Shown: in pieces, positions 34,113 to 53,546 of the stretch
Numbering within the stretch: position 1 is the stretch's first letter
Layout: the number at the start of each line of letters is the position of its first letter
Source: Holophagae bacterium
GTDB taxonomy: Bacteria > Acidobacteriota > Thermoanaerobaculia > Thermoanaerobaculales > Sulfomarinibacteraceae
Assembly (NCBI GenBank): GCA_003105185.1
Contig: PQAJ01000245.1
Location: 35,253 to 99,252, forward strand
DNA length: 64,000 nucleotides
Direction of reading: 5' to 3'
Program-made: the position numbers and the translations under genes
The notes under the pieces: generated by a model
The model's input: the letters and a program-made list of their open reading frames with translations, nothing else
Databases searched by the model: none
Told to the model about the DNA's origin: nothing

Positions 34113-34148
34113 GAGCTGCCTTTCCCGAGCGATGGTGGGCGAACCGTG

Positions 34149-34412
34149 CTACCCGCCCTCCATGGGGCTGAAGAACACGACATCATCGCCATCGGCGAGC
34201 ACTGAATCGCGCGCGCCCTGGTCGCCGTTGATGCCAATCGTAACGTCTTCCTCCGGCGGCACGCTGGCCGCGGCCATGAGGTCGGCGACGGTCGAGCCGG
34301 GCGGCAGGGTGATGGTTAACGGGCCATCGTGGCCGTTGGGGAGGAGGCGCCGGAGGTCGGCGAACAGCGTGAGACGGACGGCGACGGAGGAGGTCGCCCG
34401 GGTGTGGGGCAT
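34149..34412 (-). CDS. MoaD/ThiS-family sulfur-carrier protein
   Basis: 87 aa ending ..DGDDVVFFSPMEGG* (C-terminal Gly-Gly). It lies 36 nt upstream of aor. Confidence 0.8.
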   Translation of the reverse strand: MPHTRATSSVAVRLTLFADLRRLLPNGHDGPLTITLPPGSTVADLMAAASVPPEEDVTIGINGDQGARDSVLADGDDVVFFSPMEGG

Positions 34413-34451
34413 GGCTCACCGGTAAGAGGAGTGGTGCTTCGAGTATAGCCA

Positions 34452-34457
34452 GCACCG
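34452..34457 (-). promoter_or_regulatory. TATACT -10-like element upstream of moaD-aor
   Basis: Minus strand reads ggcTATACTcgaagc.., 39 nt before the ATG at 34412. The same hexamer is used at ruvB. Confidence 0.3.
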
Positions 34458-34477
34458 GACTACCGGGCAGCCGGTGT

Positions 34478-35698
34478 TCACCGCGTGGTGAGCGCGCGTT
34501 CCAGGGCGCTGAACGCGTCGATGACCTCAGTCGCCTCGAACGCCCGGTTGCGCCGCCCGACGCGGACAGGCCGAAGGATGCCTGCCGCGGTCAGCCGCGC
34601 CACCGCCTGGTTCGCCGCCTGGTAGGTCCGGCCTGTCAGCCCGGCGGCCCCTGCCGCTGTCACGATCGGCGCTCCTGGCAGCATGGCCAGCAGGAGGTCC
34701 GCCGTCGATCCCCGCCGGACCGCTCCAAGCCGGGAACGCCACTCGGCCTCCAGCTCGCGTGCCCGCTCTTCGTAGTCGAGCCCATCCCTCACTGCCCGCG
34801 TGCAGGCTCTCGCGAACACCGCGATCCACTGGTTCAAACCCTGGTGGGCCGCCTGGGACGAGGGGTCGCCGTCGTACCGGGTCGCCATCAGTCCGGCCAC
34901 ATACTGCTCCGCCTGTGCCGCGAGGACGAGAGAGATAGGTGGCAGCACCCGTGACGCCAGGCCGCGCCTGCGCAGGACGACCTGGATGAGCGCCCGGCCG
35001 ATGCGGCCGTTGCCATCGGCGAACGGGTGGATCGTCTCGAACTGGGCGTGCGCGAGGGCCGCCTGCACCACAGGAGAAAGCGCGTCTCCGCTGCAGAACC
35101 GGCAGAGGTCCTCCAGCAACGACTCCACCACATCTGGCGGCGGCGGGACAAACGCAGCGGAGCACGGGTTGTAGCCGCTGCCGCCGATCCAGTTCTGCTC
35201 ATCCCGAATGCGGCCCGCTGTCTCCGAAAGGCGCGTCCCCGAAAGCAACAGGCGGTGCATTTCGAGCAAGTGAGCGGTCGTTATCTCCGGAGCCCCGGAA
35301 ACCGACTGGATCGCCCACTGGACTGCGCTGATGTTCCCGAGGACCTCCTCGGCAGTGACATCGCGGGCCTCGTCGCCGAGTGTGTGCGCTGCCTCGGCCC
35401 GGAGCAGGCGGCGAGCGCCAACTTCCAGCCCCTCAATTCGCGACGATGCGACCGCTTCGGCCCGAAGCAGGAGCCGCGCAAGTGCCTCAGAGTCCACCAG
35501 CGCAGAGGCCGAGCGGTCCAGGTGGCCGATGGCGGCTTCCGCATCGGCGACATCGGCGGCCACATCGCCATCGAGCCTGATCCCGCGCCCCACGAGCGCG
35601 TCGGGCAGATACGCCCGGTACTCGCAGGCGTGGCGATCGCGCCGGGAGGATCCGGCTCCCGGGCTCGCGGGCCATGTCAGGCGCAGGTACTTCGCCAT
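34478..35698 (-). CDS. fic: Fic/DOC-family protein (AMPylase-type) with an N-terminal inhibitory motif and a C-terminal wHTH
   Basis: Fic motif HPFADGNGRIGRAL, N-terminal SSRIEG ((S/T)xxxE(G/N) inhibitory helix), and a C-terminal winged-helix-like ..YQAANQAVARLTAAGIL... Confidence 0.9.
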   Translation of the reverse strand: MAKYLRLTWPASPGAGSSRRDRHACEYRAYLPDALVGRGIRLDGDVAADVADAEAAIGHLDRSASALVDSEALARLLLRAEAVASSRIEGLEVGARRLLRAEAAHTLGDEARDVTAEEVLGNISAVQWAIQSVSGAPEITTAHLLEMHRLLLSGTRLSETAGRIRDEQNWIGGSGYNPCSAAFVPPPPDVVESLLEDLCRFCSGDALSPVVQAALAHAQFETIHPFADGNGRIGRALIQVVLRRRGLASRVLPPISLVLAAQAEQYVAGLMATRYDGDPSSQAAHQGLNQWIAVFARACTRAVRDGLDYEERARELEAEWRSRLGAVRRGSTADLLLAMLPGAPIVTAAGAAGLTGRTYQAANQAVARLTAAGILRPVRVGRRNRAFEATEVIDAFSALERALTTR

Positions 35699-35805: not shown

Positions 35806-36660
35806 CTACCCCGAGTACCCGCGGTTCCAGCGAAAAAACACCCGCGCGAGGACGAAGCTCACGGCGAGCCAGATGCCCAGCACCAGCAGGACCCGTTCGA
35901 CCTGCCACTCGCCCCCGTAGTCATCCACCGCCACCCAATCCGGCAGGAAGACGTAGCGCAGGCCCTGGACCATCCACTTCAGCGGAAAGATGGCCGCAAC
36001 GACCTTCAGGAACGGCGGCACCTGGGAGTACTGGAGAAAGACACCCGAAATGAACTGCAACACCAGGTAGGGCGGCTGCACGATTGCCGCCGCCGATGAC
36101 GAGCTGCGGATCAGCCGCGTGTAGGCGATGCCGAGCAACGAGCAGGCCGACACCCCGAGGAAGAACACGGCCGCAAACACTCCCCACTTCTTTGGGTCGG
36201 TCGGCAGCGAGACCCCGTAGAACACCACGCCGATCGCGAGGATGAGCACCACGATCACGAACGCCGTGAACAGCGCGAGCCCGACCTTGCCGGCGAAGTA
36301 GGCACTCCGTGGCAGGGGCGTGCCCGACAGCCGCCGCAGCAGCCCGTCGTGTTGTTCGACCGCTATGGTCATCGCAAGGCTGGCAAACGTGGCGCTGACG
36401 ATCCCCGAGGCGATCATGCCCGGCACGAAGTACTGCGAGAACTCCACCTTCTTTGCGCCCGGCGGGCCCTCGATCTCCCCGCTGAAAATCGTCGAGAAGA
36501 TGACCACGAACAGGACCGGCAGGAGGAAGGTGAAAAACACCTGGTCCGGCGCCCGGAAGAACGTCTTGATCTCGATCCGTGTGCGTTCGAACGAAAGGCG
36601 GATGAGGCGCCCCGGCGCGTTCGGGCGGAACTCCGCAGGGCTGGCGGGGAGCGCGGTCAT
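35806..36660 (-). CDS. ABC-2-type exporter permease
   Basis: The ATG at 36660 overlaps the ATPase stop (ATGA). Six hydrophobic helices fit an ABC-2 layout. Confidence 0.85.
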   Translation of the reverse strand: MTALPASPAEFRPNAPGRLIRLSFERTRIEIKTFFRAPDQVFFTFLLPVLFVVIFSTIFSGEIEGPPGAKKVEFSQYFVPGMIASGIVSATFASLAMTIAVEQHDGLLRRLSGTPLPRSAYFAGKVGLALFTAFVIVVLILAIGVVFYGVSLPTDPKKWGVFAAVFFLGVSACSLLGIAYTRLIRSSSSAAAIVQPPYLVLQFISGVFLQYSQVPPFLKVVAAIFPLKWMVQGLRYVFLPDWVAVDDYGGEWQVERVLLVLGIWLAVSFVLARVFFRWNRGYSG

Positions 36661-37595
36661 GCGTCGCTTCCTTTGTGGTCGGCCTGACCGTCGGCAGCCT
36701 CGACCATCGCGAGGTAGATGTCCTCCAGGCTCGGGCGGCTCACGGCGAGGGCCGGCAGCTCCGGCTCGCCGTTGGCCTCGGCCCACCGGGCCAGCGCGGT
36801 CACGACCGCCGTGGGCGTCGCAGTGGTGATGGTGACGCGGCCATTCTTGCTAACGGTCTCCGCGCCAGTCTCGGGCAGGGGCCGGCCGGCCAGGTTGCCG
36901 GTCAGCGCGAAGGTCACGCGGGCGAGAGCGCGCTCCCGGCCGCCTATCTCACGGGGCGTGCCGACCTCAACGAGTTGGCCGTTGATGATGACCCCGACGC
37001 GGTCGGCAAGCTGTTCGGCCTCGTCCAGGTAATGGGTGGTGAGCACGATGGTCTTCCCGAGCCGGGCGAACTCGCGGACCACGTCCCACAACTGGCGGCG
37101 GCCCTGCGGGTCGAGCCCGGTCGTCGGCTCATCCAGGAAGACCAGCTCCGGGTCACCGACGATGCCCATCGCGAGGTCTACCCGCCGCTTCTGACCGCCG
37201 GAAAGGTCCTTGCAGCGGCTGGAGCGTTTGTCTGCCAGCCCCACCATGTCCACCACCCGGCGGGGATCGAGGGGGTTCGGGTAGAAGGTGGCGAAGTGGG
37301 AGACGACTTCATCCGGGGTGAGTTGTTCGAAGAAGCCGGCCGATTGGAGGACGATGCCCAGCCGTGAACGCCAGACCAGGTCGCCGCGCTCAGGGTCCAC
37401 GCCCAGGACAGTGGCCTCGCCGCCAGAGCGTGCCCGGAACCCCTCGAGAATCTCGACAAAGGTGGTCTTGCCGGCGCCGTTCGGGCCGAGCAACGCGAAC
37501 ACCTCGCCAGGCTCAATCTCCAGGTCGACACCACGCAGCGCTTCGAAGTCGCCATAGCGCTTGCGGACACCGCGGGCGGAGACGGCAGCGGTCAC
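36657..37595 (-). CDS. ABC transporter ATP-binding protein (DrrA-like)
   Basis: Walker A GPNGAGKTT, signature LSGGQKRR, and Walker B LVFLDEPTTGLD. Confidence 0.93.
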   Translation of the reverse strand: MTAAVSARGVRKRYGDFEALRGVDLEIEPGEVFALLGPNGAGKTTFVEILEGFRARSGGEATVLGVDPERGDLVWRSRLGIVLQSAGFFEQLTPDEVVSHFATFYPNPLDPRRVVDMVGLADKRSSRCKDLSGGQKRRVDLAMGIVGDPELVFLDEPTTGLDPQGRRQLWDVVREFARLGKTIVLTTHYLDEAEQLADRVGVIINGQLVEVGTPREIGGRERALARVTFALTGNLAGRPLPETGAETVSKNGRVTITTATPTAVVTALARWAEANGEPELPALAVSRPSLEDIYLAMVEAADGQADHKGSDA

Positions 37596-37671
37596 GGCTG
37601 CAGGATAGCCGGTCTCGGGGCCACCGTATGTCCATACGGGCCTGGTCCATGGCCTGCGCGCTCCGCCGGGC

Positions 37672-38193
37672 TCAATCGACCAGCGCCTCGATCACCGCAT
37701 CAACGATCGCGTCGGCTTTTGCCCGCATCTCATCGTCGGTCGCGTCCTGGATGGGGTGCGGGACGAAGATGCGCCGCACCTCTGGCAGCCCGAGCGCCTT
37801 CGCCTGCACCTCGGCCGCGTCGCGGAACTCGGTTGAGGCGATGAAGACGGCGGGCTTGCCGTTGATTTCGAACCAGGCCGTGTCGTGCACACTGCACGTT
37901 GTGCAGGATCCTCAGTCAGCGAGCGCTTCGATGACGAAGGCACACTCCTCGGCGACCTTGCGGCGCAGGTCCTCGGGCGCGGGCTTGGTGAAGGTCGGCT
38001 TGCTGTAGTGCCGGAACTCCACCCGCGGCAGCCGCTCCCGCAGGCGCACTTCAAGCCGCGCGATGAGCACATCTCCCCGCGGCTTGGAGATGTTGAGCAG
38101 CGCGACTGTGCCGGTGACTTCCTCCGGCCGGCTGGTAAGCTGCCTCCGGACGGGCACGCGCTCGTCGGTCGGGTCGAGGATGGTGGTGGACAA
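37672..38193 (-). CDS. UGSC-motif protein with in-frame UGA: candidate selenoprotein (173 aa)
   Basis: ORF 37912-38193 (TTG start, GGAGGT 6 nt upstream) ends at TGA 37912-37914. The same frame continues GSCTTCS-VHDTAWFEINGK.. to the stop at 37672, giving ..VIEALAD[U]GSCTTCS... Alternative hairpins follow the UGA. Confidence 0.7.
37884..37898 (-). other. SECIS-like hairpin candidate downstream of the UGSC UGA
   Basis: mRNA reads UGA-N13-CGUGCA-GUG-UGCACG (6-bp stem, loop starting 19 nt after the UGA). Overlapping alternatives are CUGCAC-AAC-GUGCAG and UGCACA-N8-UGUGCA. Confidence 0.4.
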
Positions 38194-38251
38194 GGGGCAC
38201 CTCCGTGGTTGGGGGCATTATGGGGGATGGGGCGTGCGCCGTGTTGGGCGC

Positions 38252-39202
38252 TCAGCCGGTACGGAGGCGCGGATCCAGCAGGTCCCTGAGCGCGTCGCCG
38301 AGCATGTTGAACCCGAAGATCGCCATGCTCAGCGCCAGCCCCGGGAAGATCGCGATCCACGCGTTCTGGCTCATGAAGGTCCGCGCCTCGCGGTTCAGCA
38401 TGCCGCCCCAGGTGGCCGTATCGGGCGAAACACCCAGCCCCAGGAAGCTCAGCGCCGACTCCGAGAGGATGGCCGTGCCGAGGCCGAGCGTCGCCAGTGT
38501 GATCGTCGGCGCCATCACGTTCGGCAGCACATGGAACAGGATGATCCGCGTGTGGGTCGCGCCCGTCGCGCGCGTCGCCTCGACGTAGGCGGTGCTCTTC
38601 ACGCTCAGTGCGGCGCCCCGGATGATCCGCGAGGACCCCACCCCCAGGAGCACACCGATCGTAATCGCCAGGATCACGTTCTGAGTCTGGAACACGCCGC
38701 TCTTCGGCAGTCCGGAAATCTGCGTGTCGGTGAAGATAGCCCCCACTGCGATGATGAAGACCAGACCCGGGAACGCAATGAAAGCATCGATCAGTCGTTG
38801 AGCCAGGATGTCGAAGAGCCCCCCGAAGTAACCGCTCAGTGCGCCCACCACCAGCGATATCAGCGTCGCGATCAATACCGCCACGAAGCCGATGGTCATC
38901 GACACTCGAGCACCGTAGATCACCCGGCTGAAGATGTCCCGTCCAAGATTGTCGGTCCCCATGAAGTTATCCAGGGTTGGTCCACCCAACCGCGGTCCGG
39001 CGCCCAGCTCATTCGGCCCGTACGGAGCAATCAGGGGCGCCGCAATCGCCGCAATGAAATACATGACCACGAGCACCCCACCAATGAGGCCCAGCGGCTT
39101 CTCTCGCACCAGCCGGCGAAGGACATCCACGTAGAACGGCAGCCGGCTTTCCGGCCGATCGATCGGGACCCCGAACGGGGTCGTGACTTGAGTTCCGGCC
39201 AT
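38252..39202 (-). CDS. ABC peptide/nickel-type importer permease (DppC/OppC-like)
   Basis: 316 aa with the N-terminal ..FYVDVLRRLVREKPLGLIGG.. and the EAA-like region ..YVEATRATGATHTRIILFHVLPN... Confidence 0.9.
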   Translation of the reverse strand: MAGTQVTTPFGVPIDRPESRLPFYVDVLRRLVREKPLGLIGGVLVVMYFIAAIAAPLIAPYGPNELGAGPRLGGPTLDNFMGTDNLGRDIFSRVIYGARVSMTIGFVAVLIATLISLVVGALSGYFGGLFDILAQRLIDAFIAFPGLVFIIAVGAIFTDTQISGLPKSGVFQTQNVILAITIGVLLGVGSSRIIRGAALSVKSTAYVEATRATGATHTRIILFHVLPNVMAPTITLATLGLGTAILSESALSFLGLGVSPDTATWGGMLNREARTFMSQNAWIAIFPGLALSMAIFGFNMLGDALRDLLDPRLRTG

Positions 39203-39216
39203 TCCTCACCCCCTCG

Positions 39217-40164
39217 TCATGAGTAGTGGATGCGTGGGTCGAGCCACGCGTAGGTGATATCGACGAGCAAATTCACGACCACAACCGAGACGCCGAGGAT
39301 GAGCACGACGCCCTGGATGGAGGGGTAGTCCCGCTGGAAGATCGCTCCGACCAGGTAGCGGCCGATGCCGGGCATGTTGAAGATGCTTTCCAGGATGATG
39401 GTGCCGCTCAGGGCCACGCCCACTTGCAGTCCGATGATCGTGATCACCGGGATGAACGCGTTCTTCAGCGCGTGCCGCGAAATCACCGAGCGCTCCCGCA
39501 GTCCCTTCGACCATGCCGTCCGGATGTAGTCCTGGCGGAGAACTTCCAGCATCATCGTCCGGGTCATCCGCATCACCGCCCCAGCGAGGCCGACCCCGAG
39601 GAGGAGTGCCGGGAAGAAGAAATAGTAGAGGTGCTCGATCGGCCCGTCGGACCATCCCTTGTAGGTAAGTGGCGGCGCCCAACCCCACTTCGGCGGAAAC
39701 ACAATGAGCAGCGTGGCCGTAAAGAAGTACGGCACCGAGAGCGCGAGGATCGCAAAGCTGCGCGAAAAGTAGTCGCTCATCGTGTCCTGGCGGACCGCGG
39801 AGAGGATCCCGATCGGCAGCGCAATGACCAGGCCGAGCAGGATCGAGTAGAGTCCCAGCTCGGCCGTCACCGGCATGCGGCTCTTGATCTCGGCGGTCAC
39901 CGGCCGCGCTGTCCAGTAAGAGTTCCCCAGGTCGCCCCGCACCACATCGCCCAGGTAGCGAACGAACTGGATTGGCATCGGTTCGTCCAGCCCGAGGTCC
40001 TTCTCAATCTGCGCCCGCTCCGCTTCGCTCGCGTAGGGCCGCTCGGCCAGGATCAACTCCACGATGTCGCCTGGCACCAGCCTGACGATCATGAACGTCG
40101 CAAAGATGACAAGGACGACGGTGGGGACCGCGAGCAGGACTCTGCGGATGATGTACTCCGTCAC
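39217..40164 (-). CDS. ABC peptide/nickel-type importer permease (DppB/OppB-like)
   Basis: The GTG at 40164 has GAGGAG 7 nt upstream. VTEYIIRRVLLAVPTVVLVIF.. and ..YIRTAWSKGLRERSVISRHALKNA... Confidence 0.9.
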   Translation of the reverse strand: MTEYIIRRVLLAVPTVVLVIFATFMIVRLVPGDIVELILAERPYASEAERAQIEKDLGLDEPMPIQFVRYLGDVVRGDLGNSYWTARPVTAEIKSRMPVTAELGLYSILLGLVIALPIGILSAVRQDTMSDYFSRSFAILALSVPYFFTATLLIVFPPKWGWAPPLTYKGWSDGPIEHLYYFFFPALLLGVGLAGAVMRMTRTMMLEVLRQDYIRTAWSKGLRERSVISRHALKNAFIPVITIIGLQVGVALSGTIILESIFNMPGIGRYLVGAIFQRDYPSIQGVVLILGVSVVVVNLLVDITYAWLDPRIHYS

Positions 40165-40236
40165 CTGGACGCTCCTCTCACCACCGGGGGCAGTGCGCTG
40201 CACTGCCCCCGGGTCAGTATTACGGTTTGGCTGGCC

Positions 40237-41931
40237 TCAGGCGTCCAGCCACGCTTCCGCCTTTCGGCCGTCGTAGAGGTCGGTCGGCCAGAACCAGCCC
40301 TTGACCTTCTTATCGGTGAAGTGGTGCAGGTTGGTGGTGAACATGAATGACATCGGGAAGTCCTTTACGATCATCTGTTGCGCCTCAGTGACCAGTTGTT
40401 TGCGCTTCTCGATGTCCAGTTGTTCCGACTGCTTCTTAATGACCTCGAAGATCGCCGGATTATAGTGCTTGAAGAAAGCTGACTTCTCTCCGAAGTACGA
40501 CGCGAGGTTCTCGTCTGGGTCTGGGTTGTTGAGAGGTTGATGATGTGAGAACGTGTACTTATACGAATACGTCTGGTTGTAGTAGGCCGCCAGTTCCATC
40601 GGCTTCAGTTCAAGGTTGACGTTGATCTTCGCCAGCTGCTGCTTCAACACCTCGCCAATCTGGTCGGCCTCGGCGCCCTGCGCCCAGATGGTCTCGCCGC
40701 TGAACTCGCTCACTCCCGCCGCCGACATGAGCTCCTGGGCCTTCTTCAGGTCGAATTCAGCAAGCTCTTCCTTGAGCGCCCACTGGTCGTAAATCGGCAG
40801 GATTGGTCCATGCGCAACGATGCCGTCGCCGTTGTAGACCAGGTCGAGCACCTGCTTCTTGTCGATGGCACGGACCACCGCCTCGCGGAAGCGCGGGTCG
40901 TCGAACGGCTTCGGATACGGCTGGGTGGCGGTCGTCGGCGGCATGCGGAATTGCCGCCAGAACTGCGTCGGCACCGCCTTGTAGTTCACGTCCTTGCGCG
41001 CGTCGCGCACGCGCTGGTTCTGGTTCGAACCGATGACTCCCCCGTCCACCTGCTTATCGATGAACATCGTCGCCTGCGTGTCGCCATCGGTGGAGATCAG
41101 GTATACGAGCTTGTCGACGTACGGCAGGCCGTTCTGCCAGTATTCCGGGTTCTTGTCGAGCTCGAACTTAACGTCCTTCTGCCAGTTCTTCAGGATGAAC
41201 GGCCCTGTGCCCACGGCATGTTCGGTCAGGTCGCCCCACTTCTCGACGGCCTCGCGCGCGATCATGACTGTCCAGGGGCTCGCCAGGTAGCTCAGCATCG
41301 GCGCATACGGCTTCTTCATGGCGATGCTGACGGTGAGGTCGTCCGGCGTGTCGATCTTGTCGATGGCGCCGAGGAAGAAGTACGCGTGCTGGAACTTTCC
41401 GGCCTGATCCGTCATCTGCCGTTCGAGGCTGTACTTCACATCGGCCGACGTGAATGCGCGCCCGTTCACCGGGTCAACGTTCTGGAACTTGATGCCCGGC
41501 TTGAGCTTGATGGTGAAGGTTAGCGGGTCCGGGCTTTCCGGCAGCGACGCCGTTAATTCCGGCTCGATCGTCTTGAGGTCCGGCGTGAACCGCAGGAGCC
41601 GCTCGTTCGTGTTGTTCGTCACCGCCGTGTTGTAGGGGAAGGTATCGAAGTGCGGATCGAGGCTCCGCGGCGAACCACCCATCAGCAAGGTAAGCGTCCC
41701 GCCCGGCTTGGGCGTTTCGGCCTGGCCCCCGGAGGTGGGTGCCGCCGATGGCGAGCCGCTCGGGGTACCAGTGCCGCCACTGGGCTCATCGTCGTCGTCA
41801 TCGTCTCCGCAGCCGATTGCCGCGGCGGTTGCCAGCCCGACACTGCCGGCGCCCACGCTCCGGATGAGCGCGCGCCGCGAGACTCCTCTGTTCGCGAGCT
41901 TTTGCCAGTAGTTGTATTCGCCTCGTGACAT
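40237..41931 (-). CDS. ABC importer substrate-binding lipoprotein, family 5 (Opp/Dpp/Nik type), Tat signal
   Basis: Twin-arginine motif VSRRALIRS, lipobox AAIGC|GDDDDDD, and a 564-aa family-5 SBP-like body. Confidence 0.93.
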   Translation of the reverse strand: MSRGEYNYWQKLANRGVSRRALIRSVGAGSVGLATAAAIGCGDDDDDDEPSGGTGTPSGSPSAAPTSGGQAETPKPGGTLTLLMGGSPRSLDPHFDTFPYNTAVTNNTNERLLRFTPDLKTIEPELTASLPESPDPLTFTIKLKPGIKFQNVDPVNGRAFTSADVKYSLERQMTDQAGKFQHAYFFLGAIDKIDTPDDLTVSIAMKKPYAPMLSYLASPWTVMIAREAVEKWGDLTEHAVGTGPFILKNWQKDVKFELDKNPEYWQNGLPYVDKLVYLISTDGDTQATMFIDKQVDGGVIGSNQNQRVRDARKDVNYKAVPTQFWRQFRMPPTTATQPYPKPFDDPRFREAVVRAIDKKQVLDLVYNGDGIVAHGPILPIYDQWALKEELAEFDLKKAQELMSAAGVSEFSGETIWAQGAEADQIGEVLKQQLAKINVNLELKPMELAAYYNQTYSYKYTFSHHQPLNNPDPDENLASYFGEKSAFFKHYNPAIFEVIKKQSEQLDIEKRKQLVTEAQQMIVKDFPMSFMFTTNLHHFTDKKVKGWFWPTDLYDGRKAEAWLDA

Positions 41932-42099
41932 GCTTTCCCTCCTCGGAAAGTGGCGCCTGCCCCGACTTGGCGGGCAAATCGCAAGCGCCTGAACCGTAAT
42001 AGCCGTCGTGAATAGTTGTCAACGGCGGCACCTATCCTGAGATACGAATGAAATGCTTCTCCGGCTTTATCCAGGCACGTGAAGACGGGGACGCGACAG

Positions 42100-42119
42100 G
42101 GGCGTATGGCCATACGCCC
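42100..42119. repeat. perfect 20-nt palindrome GGGCGTATGG/CCATACGCCC
   Basis: It lies in the 223-bp gap between the 42155 stop and the SBP start (41931). There is no U-tract, so it is either a hairpin or a dimeric-regulator site. Confidence 0.3.
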
Positions 42120-42154
42120 GTACCACCCACGGCATGCCCATCGGCCATTTACCC

Positions 42155-43720
42155 CTACTCCCCGATCGCCACCGTCGTCATCTGGCTCCCCATCGGGCCG
42201 CTCACCCACCCGCCAAGGTACGCCCCGAACTTGCCCGCCTCGCCACCCGCCACCACGAACGTGATCATCTCCTTCGAGCGGAACTTCGGCACCAGCGTCT
42301 CCAGCCCGATCCGTTCCGCCTGCGCCTTCGTCAGCCCTTCGGCACAGAACTCGTCGCGCACGAGCTCCCGTGCCGGCCTCGCCGTCACCTCCTGGATGCG
42401 CTCCCGAACCTGGTCCTTGCTCCAGCCGTCCTTCGCGAAGGTGTCGACGTGCTCCGGCGGCACCACCACCACAATCTCCCCATGGTTGTGCTGCTTCGGG
42501 TGCCCGGCGGTCGCCAGCGCCAGCCCATAGCTCGTCGCGAGCGACTCCGCCCCGCGCGAAAGCTGGTCGATGATGCCGTTCGGCGCCCCGCCCGCATAGA
42601 CTGTGACGGTGCTCTGGTCCCTGCGGAAGCCGCGCTCGACGTGGAGCGGCTCCCAGTTGCTCCGCTCTTCGAACTCCGCGAAACAGTACGTGTACTTCCC
42701 CGGCTGGCCCAGCGCCGCGCGGTCGACCTCACCCGGCCGCCCACCCCCGACGTTCCGCACGACCAGCTGCACCGCCCGCCCGATGGTCGCGTTGGCGCGG
42801 TTCCCCTGGCCCAGGACGTTCATCCGGTAGTTCATCCCAATCCGGTCGCGGATAGGGCCGTTCACGATGATTACGGGCGTCGGGAAGTGGGTCGTCGCGA
42901 GCACGCCGTGCATGTTGAACTGCTCCGTCGTGATCGCCTCGACCGCCGCGATGACCACCGGCAGGTACTCGGGCCTGCAGCCGGCCATCACCGCGTTGAT
43001 CGCGACCTTCTCCACCGTCACCGGCGCCAGGTTCGGCGGGACGATGCCGATGACCTCCTGCGGGTCACGCTTCGTGCCGCCGAGCATCCGCAGCACGCGC
43101 TCGGGCGACGGCGGGATGACCGGCAACCCGTCGGTGAGCCCCTGGTCGAACATGAACTCGAAGATATCGTCCGACTCTCCAACCTCGATCCGCCGCGCGC
43201 GAAGCGGGCTGCCCTCTATCTCCGCGGCGAGGCGCTCGGCGATGCCCGGTTCCACCGACTTCGAGCCGCACCCGGGGCGCGATTCCGGGTACCCGGACCA
43301 GTCGATCACCGGCGGGGGCGCGAGCGTGACCGTGATCAGCCGGTGGAACAGCTTCTGCCAATCGTCGCGCCCGAACCCCACGAACCGCTCCAGCTCCTCG
43401 CCCCCGGGACCGGCAAGGATGACCGTTGGCACCGTGTCGAGGTCGTACCGGTAGGAAACGTGGAGCTTCGAGTCGTCGAGCATCGGCGCGGTCAGGCCGA
43501 ATCGCTCCACCAGCGCGGCGTTCCCCTCGGCGTCCTGGCCGATGCACCACACGTCCATCGCCTCGCCGAACGTCTCGGCTGCGGCCTGGATCAGCGGCAT
43601 CGAAAGGACGCAGGTGGGGCAGTCCTCCTTCACGAAACAGAGGAGCGCGTGGCGGCCAGTGGGGAAGGCGCGCTCGCCTCCAGCGGCGTCGGTTAGCGAA
43701 AAGGCGGGCAGTGTGGGCAT
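42155..43720 (-). CDS. thioredoxin-fold (TlpA/redoxin-like, CPTC) domain fused to a roughly 390-aa domain of unknown function
   Basis: The N-terminus is ..ALLCFVKEDCPTCVLSMP..VPTVIL... The remainder (..DGLPVIPPSPERVLRML..AINAVMAGCRPEYLPVVIAAVEAI..FNMHGVLATTHF..) is not a family I recognise. Confidence 0.8.
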   Translation of the reverse strand: MPTLPAFSLTDAAGGERAFPTGRHALLCFVKEDCPTCVLSMPLIQAAAETFGEAMDVWCIGQDAEGNAALVERFGLTAPMLDDSKLHVSYRYDLDTVPTVILAGPGGEELERFVGFGRDDWQKLFHRLITVTLAPPPVIDWSGYPESRPGCGSKSVEPGIAERLAAEIEGSPLRARRIEVGESDDIFEFMFDQGLTDGLPVIPPSPERVLRMLGGTKRDPQEVIGIVPPNLAPVTVEKVAINAVMAGCRPEYLPVVIAAVEAITTEQFNMHGVLATTHFPTPVIIVNGPIRDRIGMNYRMNVLGQGNRANATIGRAVQLVVRNVGGGRPGEVDRAALGQPGKYTYCFAEFEERSNWEPLHVERGFRRDQSTVTVYAGGAPNGIIDQLSRGAESLATSYGLALATAGHPKQHNHGEIVVVVPPEHVDTFAKDGWSKDQVRERIQEVTARPARELVRDEFCAEGLTKAQAERIGLETLVPKFRSKEMITFVVAGGEAGKFGAYLGGWVSGPMGSQMTTVAIGE

Positions 43721-43764: not shown

Positions 43765-43865
43765 CGGGCGGGAAACCGTGGTCGAGAGGCTCGTACATCG
43801 TGCCCCATGCTTCATGCCTCAGCCTCCCCCTCGCCAAACGCATCGCTCCGGTATCTAATACACGC

Positions 43866-44072
43866 ATGGAAGACTTTCTCTGGGGCGTCTGGAACGGGCT
43901 GACCGCCTGGCCGCTGCTCATCGTCCACATCTTCGACTGGTGGGAGCGTTACCCCGTCTACAACCTCGGGCGGGATGGCGGCTGGTACCAGTTCGGGTTC
44001 CTGCTCGGCGCGGGGTCGCCCTTCCTGGGCATGGCCGGCGGAAACCGGAGCCGGGGCCGCGACAGGGTCTGA
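43866..44072 (+). CDS. small hydrophobic protein (68 aa)
   Basis: MEDFLWGVWNGLTAWPLLIVHIFDWW..WYQFGFLLGAGSPFLGMAG. The upstream part of the ORF-track call (43542) is antisense to the Trx-fusion gene. Confidence 0.4.
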   Translation: MEDFLWGVWNGLTAWPLLIVHIFDWWERYPVYNLGRDGGWYQFGFLLGAGSPFLGMAGGNRSRGRDRV

Positions 44073-44131
44073 CCGCGGCGAAGTGCGACGGACGAAGTGC
44101 GCCCGGCCAGCGGCCGACGGCCAACGGCTCC

Positions 44132-45016
44132 TCAGGCCCTCCGCGCCCGCACCGCGAACATCTGCGGCATGTTCGGCATGCCGTCCGCCAGGTAGAAGCG
44201 CCCGCCCTCGCGCTGGACCGACCCATCGAACCGCGGGCAGCCGTTCGAGTACTCGTACTCCCGCAACACTTCCAGCCGAAGGCCGGCGTCCAGCAGCGCC
44301 GTGACCACATCGCCAACACCCCAGGCGAACTCGCCGCTCGGGTGGGGATTGGTGAAATCGGTAACGCCCTCTTCGTAGCCCCGGGGCACGAGGCCGTCTT
44401 TCGCGTAGGCCACGTAATCGCCCACGCCGGCATCGAGGATCGGTTCGGCCGAGAAGTACGGCCAGTCGCGCTCGAGCTTCTCGTTGAACATCAGCCCGAA
44501 CGGGTGGAACTCCACCAGCACGAACGTCCCGCCCGGCTTGAGCACCGAAGCGATGCCCCGGCCCCAGGCGTTGATATCGGACAGCCACATGATCGTGCCG
44601 TAGGAGCAGAACACGCGGTCGTACTGCTCGCCGCGCGCGGCGGCCTCCGCAAACCAATCGAAGATGTCGCTCCGGACGAACTTGGCCGGGATCCCCGAAT
44701 CGGCCGAGAGCTGCGTGGCAAACGCAACTGCTTCGTCGCTGATGTCGATGCCGGTGACGCTGGCGCCGAGTTTCGCAAGCGAAAGCGAGTCCTGGCCGGA
44801 ATTGCACTGGAGGTGCGCGAGTGTCTTGCCGGCCAGCTCGCCGAGCAACTCAACTTCCTCCGGAAATAGCGTGCTGCCGCCCTCGCGGAGGAAACGGGCC
44901 TGGTCGCCCTTGTGGCTGTTGTGGGCCCGGGTTGCCGCGTTCCAGGAAAGGCGGTTCGCTTCATGGATGTCCTTGCGCATCCATCTATCGAACACGGTTG
45001 GCCGCCAAGGCGCCAA
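44132..45016 (-). CDS. class I SAM-dependent methyltransferase
   Basis: Motif I region ..KTLAHLQCNSGQDSLSLAKLGASVTGIDISDEAV... 294 aa. Confidence 0.85.
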   Translation of the reverse strand: MAPWRPTVFDRWMRKDIHEANRLSWNAATRAHNSHKGDQARFLREGGSTLFPEEVELLGELAGKTLAHLQCNSGQDSLSLAKLGASVTGIDISDEAVAFATQLSADSGIPAKFVRSDIFDWFAEAAARGEQYDRVFCSYGTIMWLSDINAWGRGIASVLKPGGTFVLVEFHPFGLMFNEKLERDWPYFSAEPILDAGVGDYVAYAKDGLVPRGYEEGVTDFTNPHPSGEFAWGVGDVVTALLDAGLRLEVLREYEYSNGCPRFDGSVQREGGRFYLADGMPNMPQMFAVRARRA

Positions 45017-45219: not shown

Positions 45220-45966
45220 CTACCGGGCGACGAAGCCCCCATCGACGGGGAGCGCCGCGCCCGTGACAAACGACGACTCATCGCTGGCCAGGAAGAGCGC
45301 GAGGGCGGCGACCTCTTCGGAGGTGCCGAAGCGGTTCACCGGCTGGGAAGCGGCGAACTCCGCGCGCGCCTCTTCCGAAGTGCCCGTGAACCGCTCGACC
45401 ATCGGCGTCCAGATGACTCCCGGGCAGATGGCGTTCACGCGGATACCCTGGTCGGCGTATTCCAGTGCCGTGGTCTTCGACATTTGCACGACCGCACCCT
45501 TGGAAGCGCAGTACGCGATGATATTGGGGAAGCCCACGAGCCCGGCGACCGACGACGTATTGATGATGGACCCACCGCCGCCCTTCAGCATCGCCGGGAT
45601 GGCGTATTTCATCCCGAGGAAGACGCTCTTCAGGTTGATCCCGATGACGCGGTCGAAGTCGGCTTCCTCGTAGTCCGCGGTCACGGCCTGCGGGCCTTCG
45701 ATGCCGGCGTTGTTGAAGAGCACGTCCAGCCGGCCATACATCGTGACCGCGCGTTCGACCATCGCCTGGATGTCAGCCGTTTTCGAAACGTCCGTGTTGA
45801 TGCCGATGGCGGACTTGCCGATATCCTGCGCTGTCACCTGTTCGGCGCCGGAGATGTCCGCGCAAACGACCTTCGCGCCTTCAGCGGCGAACATGAGCGA
45901 GGCCGCCCGGCCGATGCCAGAACCGGCGCCGGTGACGATCGCGACCTTACCTTCGAGCCTTCCCAT
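45220..45966 (-). CDS. short-chain dehydrogenase/reductase (SDR) family oxidoreductase
   Basis: The ATG at 45966 has GGAGGA upstream. TGAGSGIG, NNAG, and the catalytic Y..ASK (YCASK). Confidence 0.93.
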   Translation of the reverse strand: MGRLEGKVAIVTGAGSGIGRAASLMFAAEGAKVVCADISGAEQVTAQDIGKSAIGINTDVSKTADIQAMVERAVTMYGRLDVLFNNAGIEGPQAVTADYEEADFDRVIGINLKSVFLGMKYAIPAMLKGGGGSIINTSSVAGLVGFPNIIAYCASKGAVVQMSKTTALEYADQGIRVNAICPGVIWTPMVERFTGTSEEARAEFAASQPVNRFGTSEEVAALALFLASDESSFVTGAALPVDGGFVAR

Positions 45967-46072
45967 AACGGTATCCTCCAAACGGAAATTTGATTCGAGG
46001 ATACCCGGGGAGCGAAGGCCGGCGTCACGGGCGAAGGGCCGCACCATGACCGCCGAAGGTCCCGAGCCCCGT

Positions 46073-46612
46073 TCAGTCCAGTGCCACTGGCTCGTTGAAT
46101 CGTTCGAAGATCAGGTCCGTCTCCTTGGCTCGCAGGTCGCGGAGCGAGAACAGCATCCGCTCCGCGTCAGCGCGGATCGCGTTGAGACCCTGCAGGTCGC
46201 CTTCGACAACACGCTGGACTTCGTCGGTCAGGTCACGCGCCTCCGCCTGGATGCGGGCAAGCTGCGCCGTCAACTGGCGGACCCGCGGCAGGAGCCAGGG
46301 CGCCTCGAACCGGAGTTCGCCGTACAGCCCATGCTCGCCTTCGACCTCGCGACGGTGGGCCTCGATGGCTTCGACGGCTGCATGGAGGCCGGTCGCTACA
46401 TGGCGTGCCCAGGCGCGCTCGCGGGCAGGTTGGGGCCGGCCAAGCGCGGCATGGAGCGCGTGCTCGGCCAGCTCGAGTGTGTCATGGCTTCTGGTCGCTG
46501 CATCGATCGATGCGCGTTGGCTTGGGGAAGTGGTTTCTGTCGACACCTCAGATCTCCAAATTCGCCGCAAAAGCGGCGGCTGTGGGTCCGTGGCCGGCGA
46601 TTGGGCGCCCAT
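46073..46612 (-). CDS. hypothetical helical protein (about 179 aa)
   Basis: The C-terminal 140 aa look like real helical protein (..LELAEHALHAAL..VEAIEAHRREVEGEHGLYGEL..). The start is uncertain, with candidates at 46612 and 46756. Confidence 0.5.
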   Translation of the reverse strand: MGAQSPATDPQPPLLRRIWRSEVSTETTSPSQRASIDAATRSHDTLELAEHALHAALGRPQPARERAWARHVATGLHAAVEAIEAHRREVEGEHGLYGELRFEAPWLLPRVRQLTAQLARIQAEARDLTDEVQRVVEGDLQGLNAIRADAERMLFSLRDLRAKETDLIFERFNEPVALD

Positions 46613-46736
46613 CAGCTGCCGAGCCCCCGGCGCACGGCAACGAAGTGACGATCGGGCGAAGCGGCAGCCATCGGGGCTCCGTCGCTTCCGATACACGGAC
46701 GATCGTAGCAAGACGCGGTCGCCGTCGCCAAGAGGA

Positions 46737-47615
46737 TCAGTCCGCCCTGCCACCATCCCCGCTCACGAATCCAACCCGGCCGAAGTTGTCGATCAGGAGT
46801 TCGGGGATGGGGGCCCGGCCCGCGCCCTTCGAGTTGATCGCGCGCGACATCGGCACCGTCTCCAGGCGGTACCCGAGCCCCGAATACAGGCCCTGGATGA
46901 CCGGGTGGTCGGAGTTCGAGAGCACCGCAGCAACGCCCCGGCGCGAGAGGTCCTCAAACGTGTCGCGCAGCCGAAGCTGGTCGGCCGGGCCGAAATCGGC
47001 CTGGGTGTAACTGGTGAAGCTGGCGGTCGCGCTCAGCGGCTGGTAGGGGGGGTCGAGGTAGACGAAGTCGCCGGGCCGGGCCTCCTCGCAGATCCCGGCA
47101 AAATCCGCGACCCGGAGTTCGGCCCGCTGAAGCGCCGCGGAGCAGGCGGCAAGCAACCCCGCGTCGTGGATGCGCGGGTTCTTGTAGCGCCCATGGGGGA
47201 CGTTGAACCCCCCCGAGGCGTTCACCCGGAACAGCCCGTTGTAGCAGGTGCGGTTCAAGAAGATGAAGCGGGCGGCCCGTTCGGCCGGCGACTGCGGGGC
47301 GCTGGCGCGGACCCGGTAGTACATCGCGCTGCGCTCCTCCCCGTCGCTGGCGGCGTATTCCGCGGCCAGCGCTGCCAGCGCGCCATCCAGCGCCGCGAGC
47401 TCGTCGCGGAGCACGGTGTACGTCTCGATGAGCCCGGCGTTGGCGTCGGCGAGGAGGGCCGGCGTGCCCGGCCGGGCTTCTTCGACCGCAAAGAACACCG
47501 CCCCGGCCCCGGCAAACGGCTCGATGTAGCGGGCCATCGCAGGGGGTGCCGCGGCGAGGATCGTGGAGGCGAGTTTGCCCTTACCGCCGGCCCACTTCAG
47601 AAACGGCCTCGCCAT
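46737..47615 (-). CDS. Dam-like (D12 class) N6-adenine DNA methyltransferase
   Basis: N-terminal FLKWAGGK, FAGAGAV (SAM binding), and catalytic DPPY (VYLDPPYQP). Confidence 0.88.
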   Translation of the reverse strand: MARPFLKWAGGKGKLASTILAAAPPAMARYIEPFAGAGAVFFAVEEARPGTPALLADANAGLIETYTVLRDELAALDGALAALAAEYAASDGEERSAMYYRVRASAPQSPAERAARFIFLNRTCYNGLFRVNASGGFNVPHGRYKNPRIHDAGLLAACSAALQRAELRVADFAGICEEARPGDFVYLDPPYQPLSATASFTSYTQADFGPADQLRLRDTFEDLSRRGVAAVLSNSDHPVIQGLYSGLGYRLETVPMSRAINSKGAGRAPIPELLIDNFGRVGFVSGDGGRAD

Positions 47616-47701
47616 ATGGGGTGATTGTGGCGCAGCACCCGGCCTTGCGCGAACGGCGAAGGGCGGGAGGGCAAAACCAACAGCCGGCGGCCACAGCTCG
47701 T

Positions 47702-48274: not shown

Positions 48275-48309
48275 GCCTACATCCTACCGCAGCGAAGCAA
48301 CGGCGCGCG

Positions 48310-51308: not shown

Positions 51309-51312
51309 GCGA

Positions 51313-53217: not shown

Positions 53218-53235
53218 GAGTCTTTTCGGCCCCTT

Positions 53236-53544: not shown

Positions 53545-53546
53545 CG

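What the first reader, a model, noticed from the sequence alone, without database searches (positions are those of the whole stretch)
37672..43720. Opp/Dpp-type importer with no ATPase genes, bracketed by a thioredoxin-fold fusion protein and the UGSC selenoprotein candidate
**Seen in the sequence.** The minus-strand gene order is:
1. a Trx-fold (CPTC) protein fused to an unrecognised roughly 390-aa domain
2. a Tat-lipoprotein family-5 substrate-binding protein
3. a DppB-like permease
4. a DppC-like permease
5. the UGSC-motif gene

The position usually taken by the DppD/F-type ATPase genes is occupied by the UGSC gene. The next ATPase downstream belongs to a separate ABC-2 exporter. A 223-bp gap containing a perfect 20-nt palindrome separates gene 1 from the rest.

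**Inference.** This may be a redox-coupled uptake system, for example for a disulfide- or selenium-containing peptide-like substrate. That combination has not been described to my knowledge, but it could equally be coincidental adjacency with the ATPases encoded elsewhere.
Basis: inference. Interest (0 to 1): 0.6.

Follow-up and report, generated by a model that had tools for sequence, protein, structure and literature searches.

The report
Transporter cassette inserted into selenoprotein operon
The two redox genes that flank this ATPase-less peptide-type importer are normally immediate neighbours, a widespread two-gene selenoprotein operon of unknown function, and the importer genes look like a recent, lineage-specific insertion between them, not part of one redox-coupled uptake machine.

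Summary
On the minus strand lie:
- a TlpA/ResA-like (CPTC) domain fused to an unrecognised ~350-aa domain ("X")
- a 223-bp gap holding a perfect 20-nt palindrome
- a family-5 binding protein and two Opp/Dpp-type permeases
- a UGSC-family gene with an in-frame UGA
- a separate DrrA/ABC-2 exporter

No other ABC ATPase lies in the 64 kb.

The proposed redox-coupled importer is not supported.
- **The pair is the conserved unit.** In 65 of 80 UGSC-anchored metagenome loci, and in genomes from several phyla, the X gene sits directly upstream of UGSC (median gap 31 nt). X also occurs fused to UGSC.
- **The cassette is an insertion.** It lies between the two genes only in the window's closest relatives. 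There the junction also carries unrelated cargo.
- **Lack of ATPases is normal for this cassette.** Orthologous cassettes elsewhere also lack them and lie in unrelated contexts. All are under purifying selection, so the ATPases are probably supplied in trans.

UGSC is a genuine selenoprotein gene: 79 of 80 homologues have TGA, followed by a conserved hairpin. X matches no Pfam family, PDB sequence or solved fold. The Trx-X/UGSC operon is the more interesting object. I infer a thiol/selenol redox relay, but this is untested.

The parts
42155..43720 (-). Fusion protein (521 aa): an N-terminal TlpA/ResA-like thioredoxin-fold domain, a linker, and an uncharacterised 'X' domain. It has no signal peptide or membrane anchor, so it is predicted to be cytoplasmic.
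   Evidence: More than 8000 homologues exist, mostly ~520 aa, from Chloroflexota, named 'TlpA family protein disulfide reductase' or hypothetical. dN/dS against orthologues is 0.07-0.085. The AF2 model has a mean pLDDT of 82.
43325..43720 (-). Thioredoxin-fold domain (residues 1-132), with CPTC at residues 34-37 (nt 43610-43621).
   Evidence: Foldseek against the PDB returns ResA, StoA and TlpA-type oxidoreductases (E 4e-9, target TM 0.8-0.86). Pfam and NCBIfam hits are weak and below their cut-offs. C34 is invariant and C37 nearly invariant among 50 orthologues.
42158..43195 (-). X domain (residues ~176-521), an uncharacterised family. Its conserved motifs are TDGLPVxPPT, AVMAGC (Cys248), RANATIGRA and YCxAExEE (Cys346).
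   Evidence: There is no Pfam hit even at E = 10, no NCBIfam hit and no PDB sequence or profile hit. The best Foldseek PDB match has E 6e-3 and TM 0.25-0.32. The family holds 5517 50%-identity clusters at E<1e-3, occurring as standalone, Trx-fused, UGSC-fused and tandem forms. Cys248 is conserved in 96% and Cys346 in 83% of 121 representatives plus the window protein.
42100..42119 (.). Perfect 20-nt palindrome in the 223-bp gap. It is probably a hairpin at the 3' end of the fusion gene or at the insertion junction, and it is not conserved.
   Evidence: It is unique in the window and absent from all 136 loci held at that point. It has 10-nt arms with no spacer and no U-tract follows it.
40237..41931 (-). 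Family-5 (Opp/Dpp/Nik/Gsi-type) substrate-binding lipoprotein with a Tat-type signal. Its ligand is unknown.
   Evidence: PF00496 scores E 1e-66. The best NCBIfam models, GsiB (1e-43) and NikA-like (2e-38), fall far below their cut-offs. The SRRALIRS and AAIGC motifs are read from the translation.
40184..40212 (.). Perfect 13-bp stem with a 3-nt loop, lying between the binding-protein gene and the probable true start of the first permease gene.
   Evidence: The repeat is reported. Family models align from residue ~15 of the ORF. The L054 orthologue is called 13 residues shorter.
39217..40203 (-). OppB/DppB-type permease.
   Evidence: BPD_transp_1 and BPD_transp_1_N both match. The best NCBIfam model is Opp2B, E 1e-93, just below its cut-off.
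38252..39202 (-). OppC/DppC-type permease.
   Evidence: BPD_transp_1 and OppC_N both match. The best NCBIfam model is Opp4C, E 7e-75.
37672..38193 (-). UGSC-family selenoprotein gene (173 codons). It has a TTG start preceded by GGAGG, and the Sec codon TGA lies at 37912-37914.
   Evidence: NF041046 scores 159 bits against a cut-off of 125, and PF24696 scores E 2.5e-45. The sequence is shown. TGA occupies the same codon in 23 of 23 genome-derived homologues and 79 of 80 metagenome-derived homologues.
37884..37898 (-). Putative bacterial SECIS hairpin, CGUGCA-GUG-UGCACG, starting 13 nt after the UGA.
   Evidence: All 76 distinct sequences pair at every position. There are 11 G-C to G-U changes and 1 G-C to A-U change. 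Synonymous sites inside the hairpin (ACG, TGC, AGT) are frozen, while flanking synonymous sites vary. In the window sequence alone the fold is not unusually stable.
35806..37595 (-). Neighbouring DrrA-like ATPase (36657-37595) and ABC-2 permease (35806-36786). This is a separate exporter that travels with UGSC within this Chloroflexota clade.
   Evidence: The UGSC-DrrA-ABC2 block is conserved in at least 14 loci, and in L012 and L014 it is inverted as a unit.

Best explanation
The locus is two independent things superimposed.

**1. An ancestral two-gene cytoplasmic operon.** It encodes a TlpA-like thioredoxin domain fused to an uncharacterised X domain, followed by the UGSC selenoprotein.
- I infer that the pair works as a thiol/selenol relay. 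The Sec-x-x-Cys of UGSC and the CPTC of the fused thioredoxin domain would exchange electrons with the nearly universal Cys248 (and Cys346) of X.
- X is presumably the catalytic or substrate-binding partner.
- The substrate is unknown.

**2. An ordinary three-gene Opp/Dpp-type importer cassette.** It holds a Tat-lipoprotein binding protein and two permeases.
- This lineage of cassettes never carries its own ATPase genes. It is presumably energised by OppD/F-type ATPases encoded elsewhere.
- In the window's clade the cassette was inserted into the plastic junction between the two operon genes. UGSC therefore now lies downstream of the permeases.

**What is shown and what is inferred.**
- Shown: the conserved adjacency and fusion of X with UGSC, the restricted distribution of the insertion, the ATPase-less state of orthologous cassettes, and purifying selection.
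- Inferred: the redox relay, ATPase supply in trans, and the absence of functional coupling.
For: **Direct X-to-UGSC adjacency in distant genomes.** The gap is 9-110 bp in genomes labelled Pseudomonadales (L042), Binataceae (L044), Dehalococcoidia (L040, L051) and Tepidiformales-type (L001, L010, L011, L016, L018, L020, L037).

**UGSC-anchored metagenome scan.**
- 65 of 80 loci have X upstream on the same strand.
- 56 of the 64 loci with more than 600 nt upstream have it.
- The median gap is 31 nt.
- 36 of 37 full-length cases carry the thioredoxin domain.

**Other architectures tie X to UGSC.**
- Standalone X in Methylomirabilota is also followed directly by UGSC.
- UGSC-X fusion proteins exist. 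This is probably the 'UGSC/Unknown_1' fusion noted in PMC2398784.

**The cassette lies between the pair only in close relatives.** These are the window, L005, L008 and L009, plus the partial loci L024 and L060.

**The junction is plastic in this clade.**
- Equally close relatives L006 and L007 carry two secreted proteins there instead.
- Other relatives have acyl-CoA dehydrogenase, Usp, PAP2, hydrolase plus PAS, or a toxin-antitoxin pair next to UGSC.

**The cassette stands on its own.**
- Orthologous cassettes (PermC 70-75% identical) in L054, L055 and L056 have no ABC_tran gene within 8 kb and sit in unrelated contexts.
- dN/dS is 0.03-0.19 for all cassette genes.

**There is precedent for incomplete ABC importers.** Such importers are energised by orphan 'multitask' ATPases (PMC7658222).
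Against: - The cassette has stayed co-oriented between the pair through substantial divergence. dS is ~1 between the window and L009.
- A non-orthologous Opp-type cassette (PermB 45%, PermC 34% identical), again without ATPases, sits directly upstream of UGSC in L059.
- In L054 the cassette and UGSC remain 4 kb apart with no X gene in the 17-kb locus.
- Distant X/UGSC paralogues lie beside transporters or binding proteins: TctCBA in L137, an NMT1-type ABC system in L138, and SBP_bac_5 in L140.
- The partner ATPases were never located.
- Some UGSC domains fused to X lack the redox motif, reading IGAA or IGGS. The family's role is therefore not always redox.
- No transcription data are available.
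Confidence: 0.65

Rival explanations
1. Functional recruitment. X/UGSC would be a cytoplasmic redox enzyme pair acting on an imported small molecule, such as a peptide-like disulfide, thiol or selenium compound. In this clade its dedicated uptake system would have been captured into the operon, with the ATPases shared from another locus.
For: - The cassette has been retained, co-oriented, between the pair at dS ~1.
- A second, paralogous Opp-type cassette lies upstream of UGSC in L059.
- The cassette and UGSC are still linked in L054 and L060.
- X-family paralogues sit next to SBP_bac_5 (L140), TctC (L137, L139) and an NMT1 ABC system (L138).
- The best, though sub-threshold, model for the binding protein is the glutathione-binding GsiB.
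Against: - About 88% of informative UGSC loci have X immediately upstream with no transporter.
- Orthologous cassettes in L055 and L056 have no X or UGSC within 8 kb.
- The same junction holds many unrelated genes in sister genomes.
- The L140 binding protein is only 25% identical to the window's.
- No riboswitch or shared regulatory element was found.
Confidence: 0.2
2. The cassette is a decaying remnant of a full opp/dpp operon that lost its ATPase genes and no longer functions.
For: No OppD/F-type gene lies in the 64-kb window.
Against: - All three genes are intact.
- dN/dS is 0.03-0.19 against orthologues up to 25-38% diverged.
- The same three-gene layout without ATPases recurs in L054, L055 and L056.
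Confidence: 0.03
3. The downstream DrrA-like ATPase energises the Opp/Dpp-type permeases, so the importer is in fact complete.
For: It is the only ABC ATPase nearby, 77 bp beyond UGSC on the same strand.
Against: - It is followed by its own ABC-2 permease. The DrrA-ABC2 pair travels with UGSC in many loci that lack the cassette.
- Orthologous cassettes in L054-L056 have no such ATPase nearby.
- DrrA-type nucleotide-binding domains lack the C-terminal oligopeptide-transporter extension of OppD/F. This rests on family knowledge and was not tested here.
Confidence: 0.03

Closest known systems
Opp/Dpp/Nik/Gsi (peptide/nickel, PepT-family) ABC importers
   Same: It has a family-5 lipoprotein binding protein and two BPD_transp_1 permeases with OppB-N and OppC_N extensions, in the usual A-B-C order.
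   Different: No D/F ATPase genes lie in the operon or within the 64 kb, here or in orthologous cassettes. No equivalog model reaches its cut-off, so the substrate cannot be assigned.
Incomplete ABC importers energised by orphan 'multitask' ATPases (MsmX, MsmK, MsiK)
   Same: These are operons with a binding protein and permeases but no ATPase. They remain functional because an ATPase encoded elsewhere serves several systems (PMC7658222).
   Different: The documented cases are carbohydrate (CUT1-type) importers. Sharing of OppD/F-type ATPases in this Chloroflexota lineage is inferred, not shown.
UGSC-containing selenoprotein family (NF041046, PF24696; Zhang & Gladyshev 2008, PMC2398784)
   Same: The window gene scores above the curated cut-off. 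It has the U-G-S-C motif encoded by TGA and a hairpin downstream. The paper also records a fusion of UGSC to an unknown domain, 'Unknown_1'.
   Different: The literature lists the family as functionally uncharacterised. In the papers I could search, I found no description of its near-obligate pairing with the Trx-X fusion gene. I could not verify that 'Unknown_1' is X, because the figure is held only as an image.
TlpA/ResA/StoA thiol-disulfide oxidoreductases
   Same: The N-terminal 130 residues have the same fold and a CxxC motif.
   Different: Those proteins are membrane-anchored and face outward. This domain starts at residue 1 with no signal or anchor, and it is fused to a 390-residue C-terminal extension (linker plus the ~350-aa X domain). 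Pfam scores fall below the gathering thresholds.
Thioredoxin-fused, single-cysteine reductases such as PilB-type Trx-MsrA/MsrB (working analogy from my own knowledge)
   Same: A thioredoxin-like module is fused to a domain with one nearly universal cysteine, and an additional redox partner is present.
   Different: There is no sequence or fold relationship to Msr. The substrate and chemistry of X are unknown.

Membership tests
Opp/Dpp-type (PepT family) ABC importer | Family-5 extracytoplasmic substrate-binding protein | tested here: met
   PF00496 scores E 1e-66. A Tat motif and a lipobox are read from the translation.
Opp/Dpp-type (PepT family) ABC importer | Two OppB/OppC-type membrane permeases | tested here: met
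   BPD_transp_1 matches together with BPD_transp_1_N and OppC_N. Opp2B scores 1e-93 and Opp4C scores 7e-75.
Opp/Dpp-type (PepT family) ABC importer | Two OppD/OppF-type ATPases encoded with the permeases | tested here: not met
   No second ABC ATPase lies in the 64 kb. Orthologous cassettes L054-L056 have none either. Whether such genes exist elsewhere in the genome cannot be tested from one window.
Opp/Dpp-type (PepT family) ABC importer | Assignable substrate, shown by an equivalog-level match | tested here: not met
   The best models, GsiB (150 bits against a cut-off of 594) and NikA-like (132 against 600), are far below their cut-offs.
UGSC family (seleno)protein | Score above the curated family cut-off | tested here: met
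   NF041046 scores 159 bits against a cut-off of 125, and PF24696 scores 155 bits against 25.
UGSC family (seleno)protein | In-frame UGA at the U of the UGSC motif | tested here: met
   TGA lies at 37912-37914. The same codon is TGA in 23 of 23 and 79 of 80 homologues.
UGSC family (seleno)protein | SECIS-like stem-loop just downstream of the UGA | tested here: met
   A 6-bp stem with a GUN loop starts 13 nt after the UGA. It pairs fully in all 76 distinct sequences, and its synonymous sites are frozen. Covariation itself is sparse, with one double change. No Rfam family reached its threshold.
UGSC family (seleno)protein | Selenocysteine machinery (selA, selB, selC, selD) in the genome | not testable with these tools
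   The window holds none: there are no tRNAs and no SelB hit. However, selB lies directly upstream of the pair in 9 metagenome loci.
TlpA/ResA thiol-disulfide oxidoreductase | Thioredoxin fold with a CxxC active site | tested here: met
   Foldseek finds ResA at E 4e-9 with target TM 0.8-0.86. The CPTC motif is conserved.
TlpA/ResA thiol-disulfide oxidoreductase | Extracytoplasmic location by way of a signal peptide or membrane anchor | tested here: not met
   The fold begins at residue 1. No hydrophobic N-terminal segment appears in the translation or in the model.
TlpA/ResA thiol-disulfide oxidoreductase | Family-level sequence score | tested here: not met
   ResA scores 21.6 bits against a cut-off of 170. 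AhpC-TSA and Redoxin score ~21-22 bits against 26-27.
   Only the pair is conserved. The cassette is confined to the nearest relatives, and both parts occur independently.
   No expression data are available. The consensus promoter and terminator scans were uninformative.

The most novel reading that the evidence does not exclude
Trx-X plus UGSC may be a previously undescribed and very widespread two-component selenoenzyme.
- X would be a new catalytic fold using Cys248.
- X would be served by a Sec-x-x-Cys partner and a fused thioredoxin module.
- It would act on a small-molecule substrate. The contexts of its paralogues hint at carboxylate or CoA-linked metabolites.
- In this Chloroflexota clade it would have captured an ATPase-less Opp-type uptake cassette for that substrate.
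Probability: 0.2. Interest if true: 0.7.

Novelty: new member of a known kind. Interest (0 to 1): 0.35.

Why it matters
**The finding as stated is ordinary.** An importer operon without ATPase genes is a known situation, and its position between two redox genes is best explained by an insertion.

**The by-product is worth keeping.**
- The metagenome surveys cited (PMC2398784, PMC9312934) rank UGSC among the most prominent selenoprotein families in marine and freshwater samples, and its function is still unknown.
- UGSC is almost always encoded directly after, or fused to, a large uncharacterised domain that has no Pfam model, no PDB sequence match and no convincing solved-fold match.
- This gives a concrete partner and a testable unit, the two-gene operon, for working out what this selenoprotein does.
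- It also suggests that the X domain deserves a family model.

Tried and rejected
- **Sequence searches of X.** Searches against Pfam (down to E = 10), NCBIfam and PDB sequences and profiles found nothing.
- **Fold search of X.**
  - The full-length model returned only thioredoxin-domain hits.
  - The X-only model gave no significant PDB match. The best hits were class I fumarate hydratase alpha subunit, cyanuric acid hydrolase and PrpD, with E >= 6e-3 and TM <= 0.32. I do not rely on them.
- **UGSC against other families.** I recalled that GrdB/PrdB selenoproteins also carry a UxxC motif. No Pfam hit other than UGSC appeared at E <= 10 apart from noise, and the PDB profile search gave noise only.
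- **A third conserved partner gene.**
  - Clustering of flanking ORFs over 127 loci found nothing universal.
  - The recurrent short-chain dehydrogenases are only 27-41% identical to each other. They are paralogues, so I treat their adjacency as chance.
  - Rhodanese, family III CoA-transferase and selB adjacencies are lineage-specific.
- **Regulatory elements.**
  - No Rfam match was found for a riboswitch or other RNA in the 223-bp gap or anywhere in the window.
  - Promoter and terminator consensus scans found nothing on the relevant strand.
  - The palindrome is not conserved in any related locus.
- **SECIS fold in the window alone.** The single-sequence fold is not more stable than shuffled controls (z = 0.3). 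The evidence for the element is comparative.
- **The 331-aa ORF at 43812-44807.** It has no family hit and poor codon-position GC. The overlapping 44132-45016 ORF is a SAM methyltransferase and is more likely the real gene.

Full report
**1. What is in the window**

The window is 61-71% G+C. Its homologues come from Chloroflexota metagenome-assembled genomes labelled Dehalococcoidia, Tepidiformaceae or Anaerolineaceae.

- 42155-43720: a 521-aa protein with CPTC at residues 34-37. It gives only weak Redoxin, AhpC and ResA hits, and residues ~135-521 match nothing.
- A 223-bp gap.
- 40237-41931: a family-5 binding protein (PF00496, E 1e-66). It carries a twin-arginine motif (SRRALIRS) and a lipobox (AAIGC).
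- 39217-40203 and 38252-39202: OppB- and OppC-type permeases.
- 37672-38193: a UGSC-family gene (NF041046, 159 bits against a cut-off of 125) with TGA at 37912-37914.
- 36657-37595 and 35806-36786: a DrrA-like ATPase and an ABC-2 permease, starting 77 bp beyond UGSC.

The 20-nt palindrome lies at 42100-42119 and is unique in the window.

No other ABC ATPase is detectable anywhere in the 64 kb by tblastn. Pfam scans of 20 flanking genes found none either. Those flanking genes are:
- complex I subunits
- a Dam methylase
- Uma2
- a SAM methyltransferase
- a short-chain dehydrogenase
- Fic
- an aldehyde:ferredoxin oxidoreductase
- a P-type ATPase

**2. The bracketing genes are a conserved pair**

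I fetched 47 genome loci with the fusion protein and mapped all the window's proteins onto them.

UGSC follows the fusion gene directly, with a gap of 9-110 bp, in these loci:
- Close relatives at 83-87% identity: L001, L010, L011, L016, L018, L020 and L037.
- Distant genomes at 54-60% identity: contigs labelled Pseudomonadales (L042) and Binataceae (L044), contig L048, and the low-GC Dehalococcoidia L040 and L051.

The reciprocal test used 80 metagenome loci anchored on UGSC. The results:
- 65 of 80 have the X domain upstream on the same strand.
- 56 of the 64 loci with more than 600 nt upstream have it.
- The median gap is 31 nt, and 52 of the 65 gaps are 60 nt or less.
- 36 of 37 full-length cases include the thioredoxin domain.

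Other architectures tie X to UGSC as well:
- In Methylomirabilota, X occurs as a standalone ~350-aa protein, again followed directly by UGSC. Gene callers split UGSC in two at the UGA.
- An exhaustive search with the C-terminal 391 residues found 5517 50%-identity clusters.
- These include UGSC-X fusion proteins of 540-560 aa, with Cys forms CGSC and CGNC. They also include Sec forms truncated at the UGA.

Conserved adjacency and gene fusion together make a strong case that X and UGSC work together. A 2008 survey noted a fusion of UGSC to an unknown domain, 'Unknown_1' (PMC2398784). This is probably the same domain, but the figure is held only as an image.

**3. The transporter is an insertion into a plastic junction**

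The SBP-PermB-PermC cassette lies between the pair only in the following loci:
- the window
- L005, L008 and L009, where the fusion protein is 91-94% identical to the window's
- partial loci L024 and L060

Equally close relatives L006 and L007 (92-93%) carry two secreted proteins at that position instead. L005 and L009 carry those proteins plus the cassette, and L009 adds a cupredoxin-like membrane protein.

In the same clade, the genes next to UGSC are different again:
- a toxin-antitoxin pair in L054
- a hydrolase and a PAS protein in L060 and L061, an acyl-CoA dehydrogenase in L057, Usp in L062, PAP2 in L058, and NIPSNAP in L081

In L012 and L014 the UGSC-DrrA-ABC2 block is inverted relative to the fusion gene.

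Direct adjacency is the state seen across phyla, so it is the ancestral one. The cassette is one of many cargoes that have entered a variable junction.

**4. The missing ATPases**

Orthologous cassettes (PermC 70-75% and SBP 62-73% identical) occur in L054, L055 and L056. All three are three-gene units with no ABC_tran gene within 8 kb. They sit next to unrelated genes such as Cpn60 and valyl-tRNA synthetase. In L016, a 70%-identical PermC is followed by a non-ATPase gene.

All cassette genes are under purifying selection. dN/dS is 0.03-0.19, including comparisons where dS is ~1.

The lack of ATPases is therefore a property of this cassette lineage. It is not a consequence of UGSC occupying 'their' position. 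Supply by ATPases encoded elsewhere is the simplest reading. Such 'multitask' ATPases are documented for incomplete sugar importers (PMC7658222). I could not locate the partner ATPases.

**5. UGSC is a real selenoprotein gene**

- The codon for U is TGA in 23 of 23 distinct genome-derived homologues and 79 of 80 metagenome-derived homologues. This holds even though one of the two scan patterns back-translated a Cys codon at that position.
- A hairpin, CGUGCA-GUN-UGCACG, begins 13 nt after the UGA (window 37884-37898).
- In 76 distinct sequences every position of the hairpin pairs. There are 11 G-C to G-U changes and one G-C to A-U change.
- Synonymous positions inside the hairpin are frozen: ACG, TGC and the otherwise unusual AGT. 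Flanking synonymous positions vary freely.
- This matches what I recall of bacterial SECIS elements, with G and U at the start of the apical loop.
- Covariation proper is sparse, and the single-sequence fold is unremarkable.
- No selenocysteine machinery lies in the window. However, selB sits directly upstream of the pair in nine metagenome loci.

**6. What the pair might do**

The N-terminal domain:
- It has a ResA/TlpA-like fold (Foldseek E 4e-9, target TM 0.8-0.86).
- It has no signal peptide or anchor, so it is cytoplasmic, as UGSC also appears to be.

The X domain:
- It matches no Pfam family even at E = 10 and no PDB sequence or profile.
- The X-only AlphaFold model (pTM 0.78) has no convincing structural neighbour. 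The best hit has E 6e-3 and TM <= 0.32.
- Across 121 diverse representatives plus the window protein, Cys248 (motif AVMAGC) is conserved in 96% and Cys346 in 83%.

The architecture is a thioredoxin module, a Sec-x-x-Cys partner, and a domain with one nearly universal cysteine. The most likely mechanism is therefore a thiol/selenol relay to a catalytic cysteine in X. This is inference only.

Two cautions apply:
- Some UGSC domains fused to X have lost the redox motif and read IGAA or IGGS.
- Distant paralogues sit in catabolic clusters with family III CoA-transferase, MaoC-type hydratase, TctC/TctCBA, MmgE/PrpD or binding proteins. This hints at small-molecule metabolism, not protein disulfide exchange.

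**7.

Against a single redox-coupled importer:
- Each half occurs without the other.
- The junction is promiscuous.

For some link:
- The arrangement has been retained through substantial divergence.
- A paralogous, ATPase-less Opp-type cassette lies directly upstream of UGSC in L059.
- A family-5 binding protein, only 25% identical to the window's, lies 14 bp upstream of a tandem X-X protein in L140.

I put recruitment of a substrate importer at about 0.2 and the insertion reading at about 0.65.

**8. Verdict**

- The transporter and the UGSC gene are new members of known kinds.
- The tightly linked Trx-X/UGSC operon is widespread, and its X domain has no family model and no PDB sequence or convincing fold match. 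It is the part worth following up.

Noticed in passing
L100, L107 (246-2228), L109, L111, L115, L124, L126, L128, L131: A selB gene (GTP_EFTU plus SelB winged-helix domains) lies directly upstream of the Trx-X/UGSC pair in nine metagenome loci. This suggests that UGSC is a principal selenoprotein in those organisms.
   Followed up: partly
L010, L011, L013, L015-L018, L020, L026, L037 (upstream of the fusion gene); L039 11863-12696 and L049 12879-13916 (downstream): A two-domain rhodanese gene lies next to the fusion gene in 12 Tepidiformales-type loci, in two arrangements. The rhodaneses of the two groups are only 33% identical. The window has none.
   Followed up: partly
L137 (Actinophytocola sp., 6483-15620) and L139 (2175-9868): Distant X/UGSC paralogues sit in clusters with a GntR- or IclR-type regulator, TctC or TctCBA, a MaoC-type hydratase and a family III CoA-transferase. 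L137 has a UGSC-X fusion without the redox motif, a second UGSC with CGSC, and a 359-aa protein with no Pfam hit. CoA_transf_3 also lies near the pair in L023, L034, L041, L045 and L086.
   Followed up: partly
L140 5278-9154; L138 821-9678: In L140 a family-5 binding protein lies 14 bp upstream of a tandem X-X protein (717 aa). In L138 a UGSC-X fusion (CGNC) lies between an NMT1-type ABC importer, which has its own ATPase, and two PGA_cap genes plus MmgE/PrpD.
   Followed up: no
L059 45-3398: A different Opp-type cassette (PermB 45% and PermC 34% identical to the window's), also without ATPase genes, lies directly upstream of a UGSC gene 79% identical to the window's.
   Followed up: partly
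P0260, P0264 (UGSC-X fusion proteins): In some fusions the U/C-G-S-C motif is replaced by IGGS or IGAA. The UGSC domain is therefore not always redox-active.
   Followed up: no
window 40184-40212: A perfect 13-bp stem with a 3-nt loop lies between the binding-protein gene and the probable true start of the first permease gene. This may be an intercistronic mRNA hairpin.
   Followed up: no
window 37596-37671, compared with L001 12183-13137: In L001 a MerR-family gene and a small ORF lie between UGSC and the DrrA-like ATPase, and most relatives show a similar ~900-bp gap there. The window, L015 and L057 have only 43-77 bp at that position.
   Followed up: no
window 43812-45016: Two overlapping minus-strand ORFs in different frames occupy this stretch. 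ORF 44132-45016 is a SAM methyltransferase (E 4e-13). ORF 43812-44807 (331 aa) has no family hit and was rejected by the codon-position GC filter. Its tblastn 'conservation' in relatives probably reflects DNA conservation.
   Followed up: partly
window 32310-35698 and 45220-56036: The surroundings look like a variable region bordering core genes. They hold Fic (34478-35698), a ThiS-like protein and a tungsten-type aldehyde:ferredoxin oxidoreductase (32310-34412), a short-chain dehydrogenase (45220-46047), a Dam methylase (46737-47615), Uma2 (47702-48274), complex I-type antiporter-like and chain-6 subunits (48310-54047), and a 4Fe-4S ferredoxin-domain protein (54048-56036).
   Followed up: no
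L006 11760-13601, L005 11727-13689, L009 2705-5548: Two secreted proteins occupy the junction between the fusion gene and UGSC in sister genomes. One is ~375-400 aa with Gly-rich and Asp-rich, thrombospondin-type-3-like repeats. The other is ~210-240 aa. L009 adds a cupredoxin-like membrane protein.
   Followed up: no
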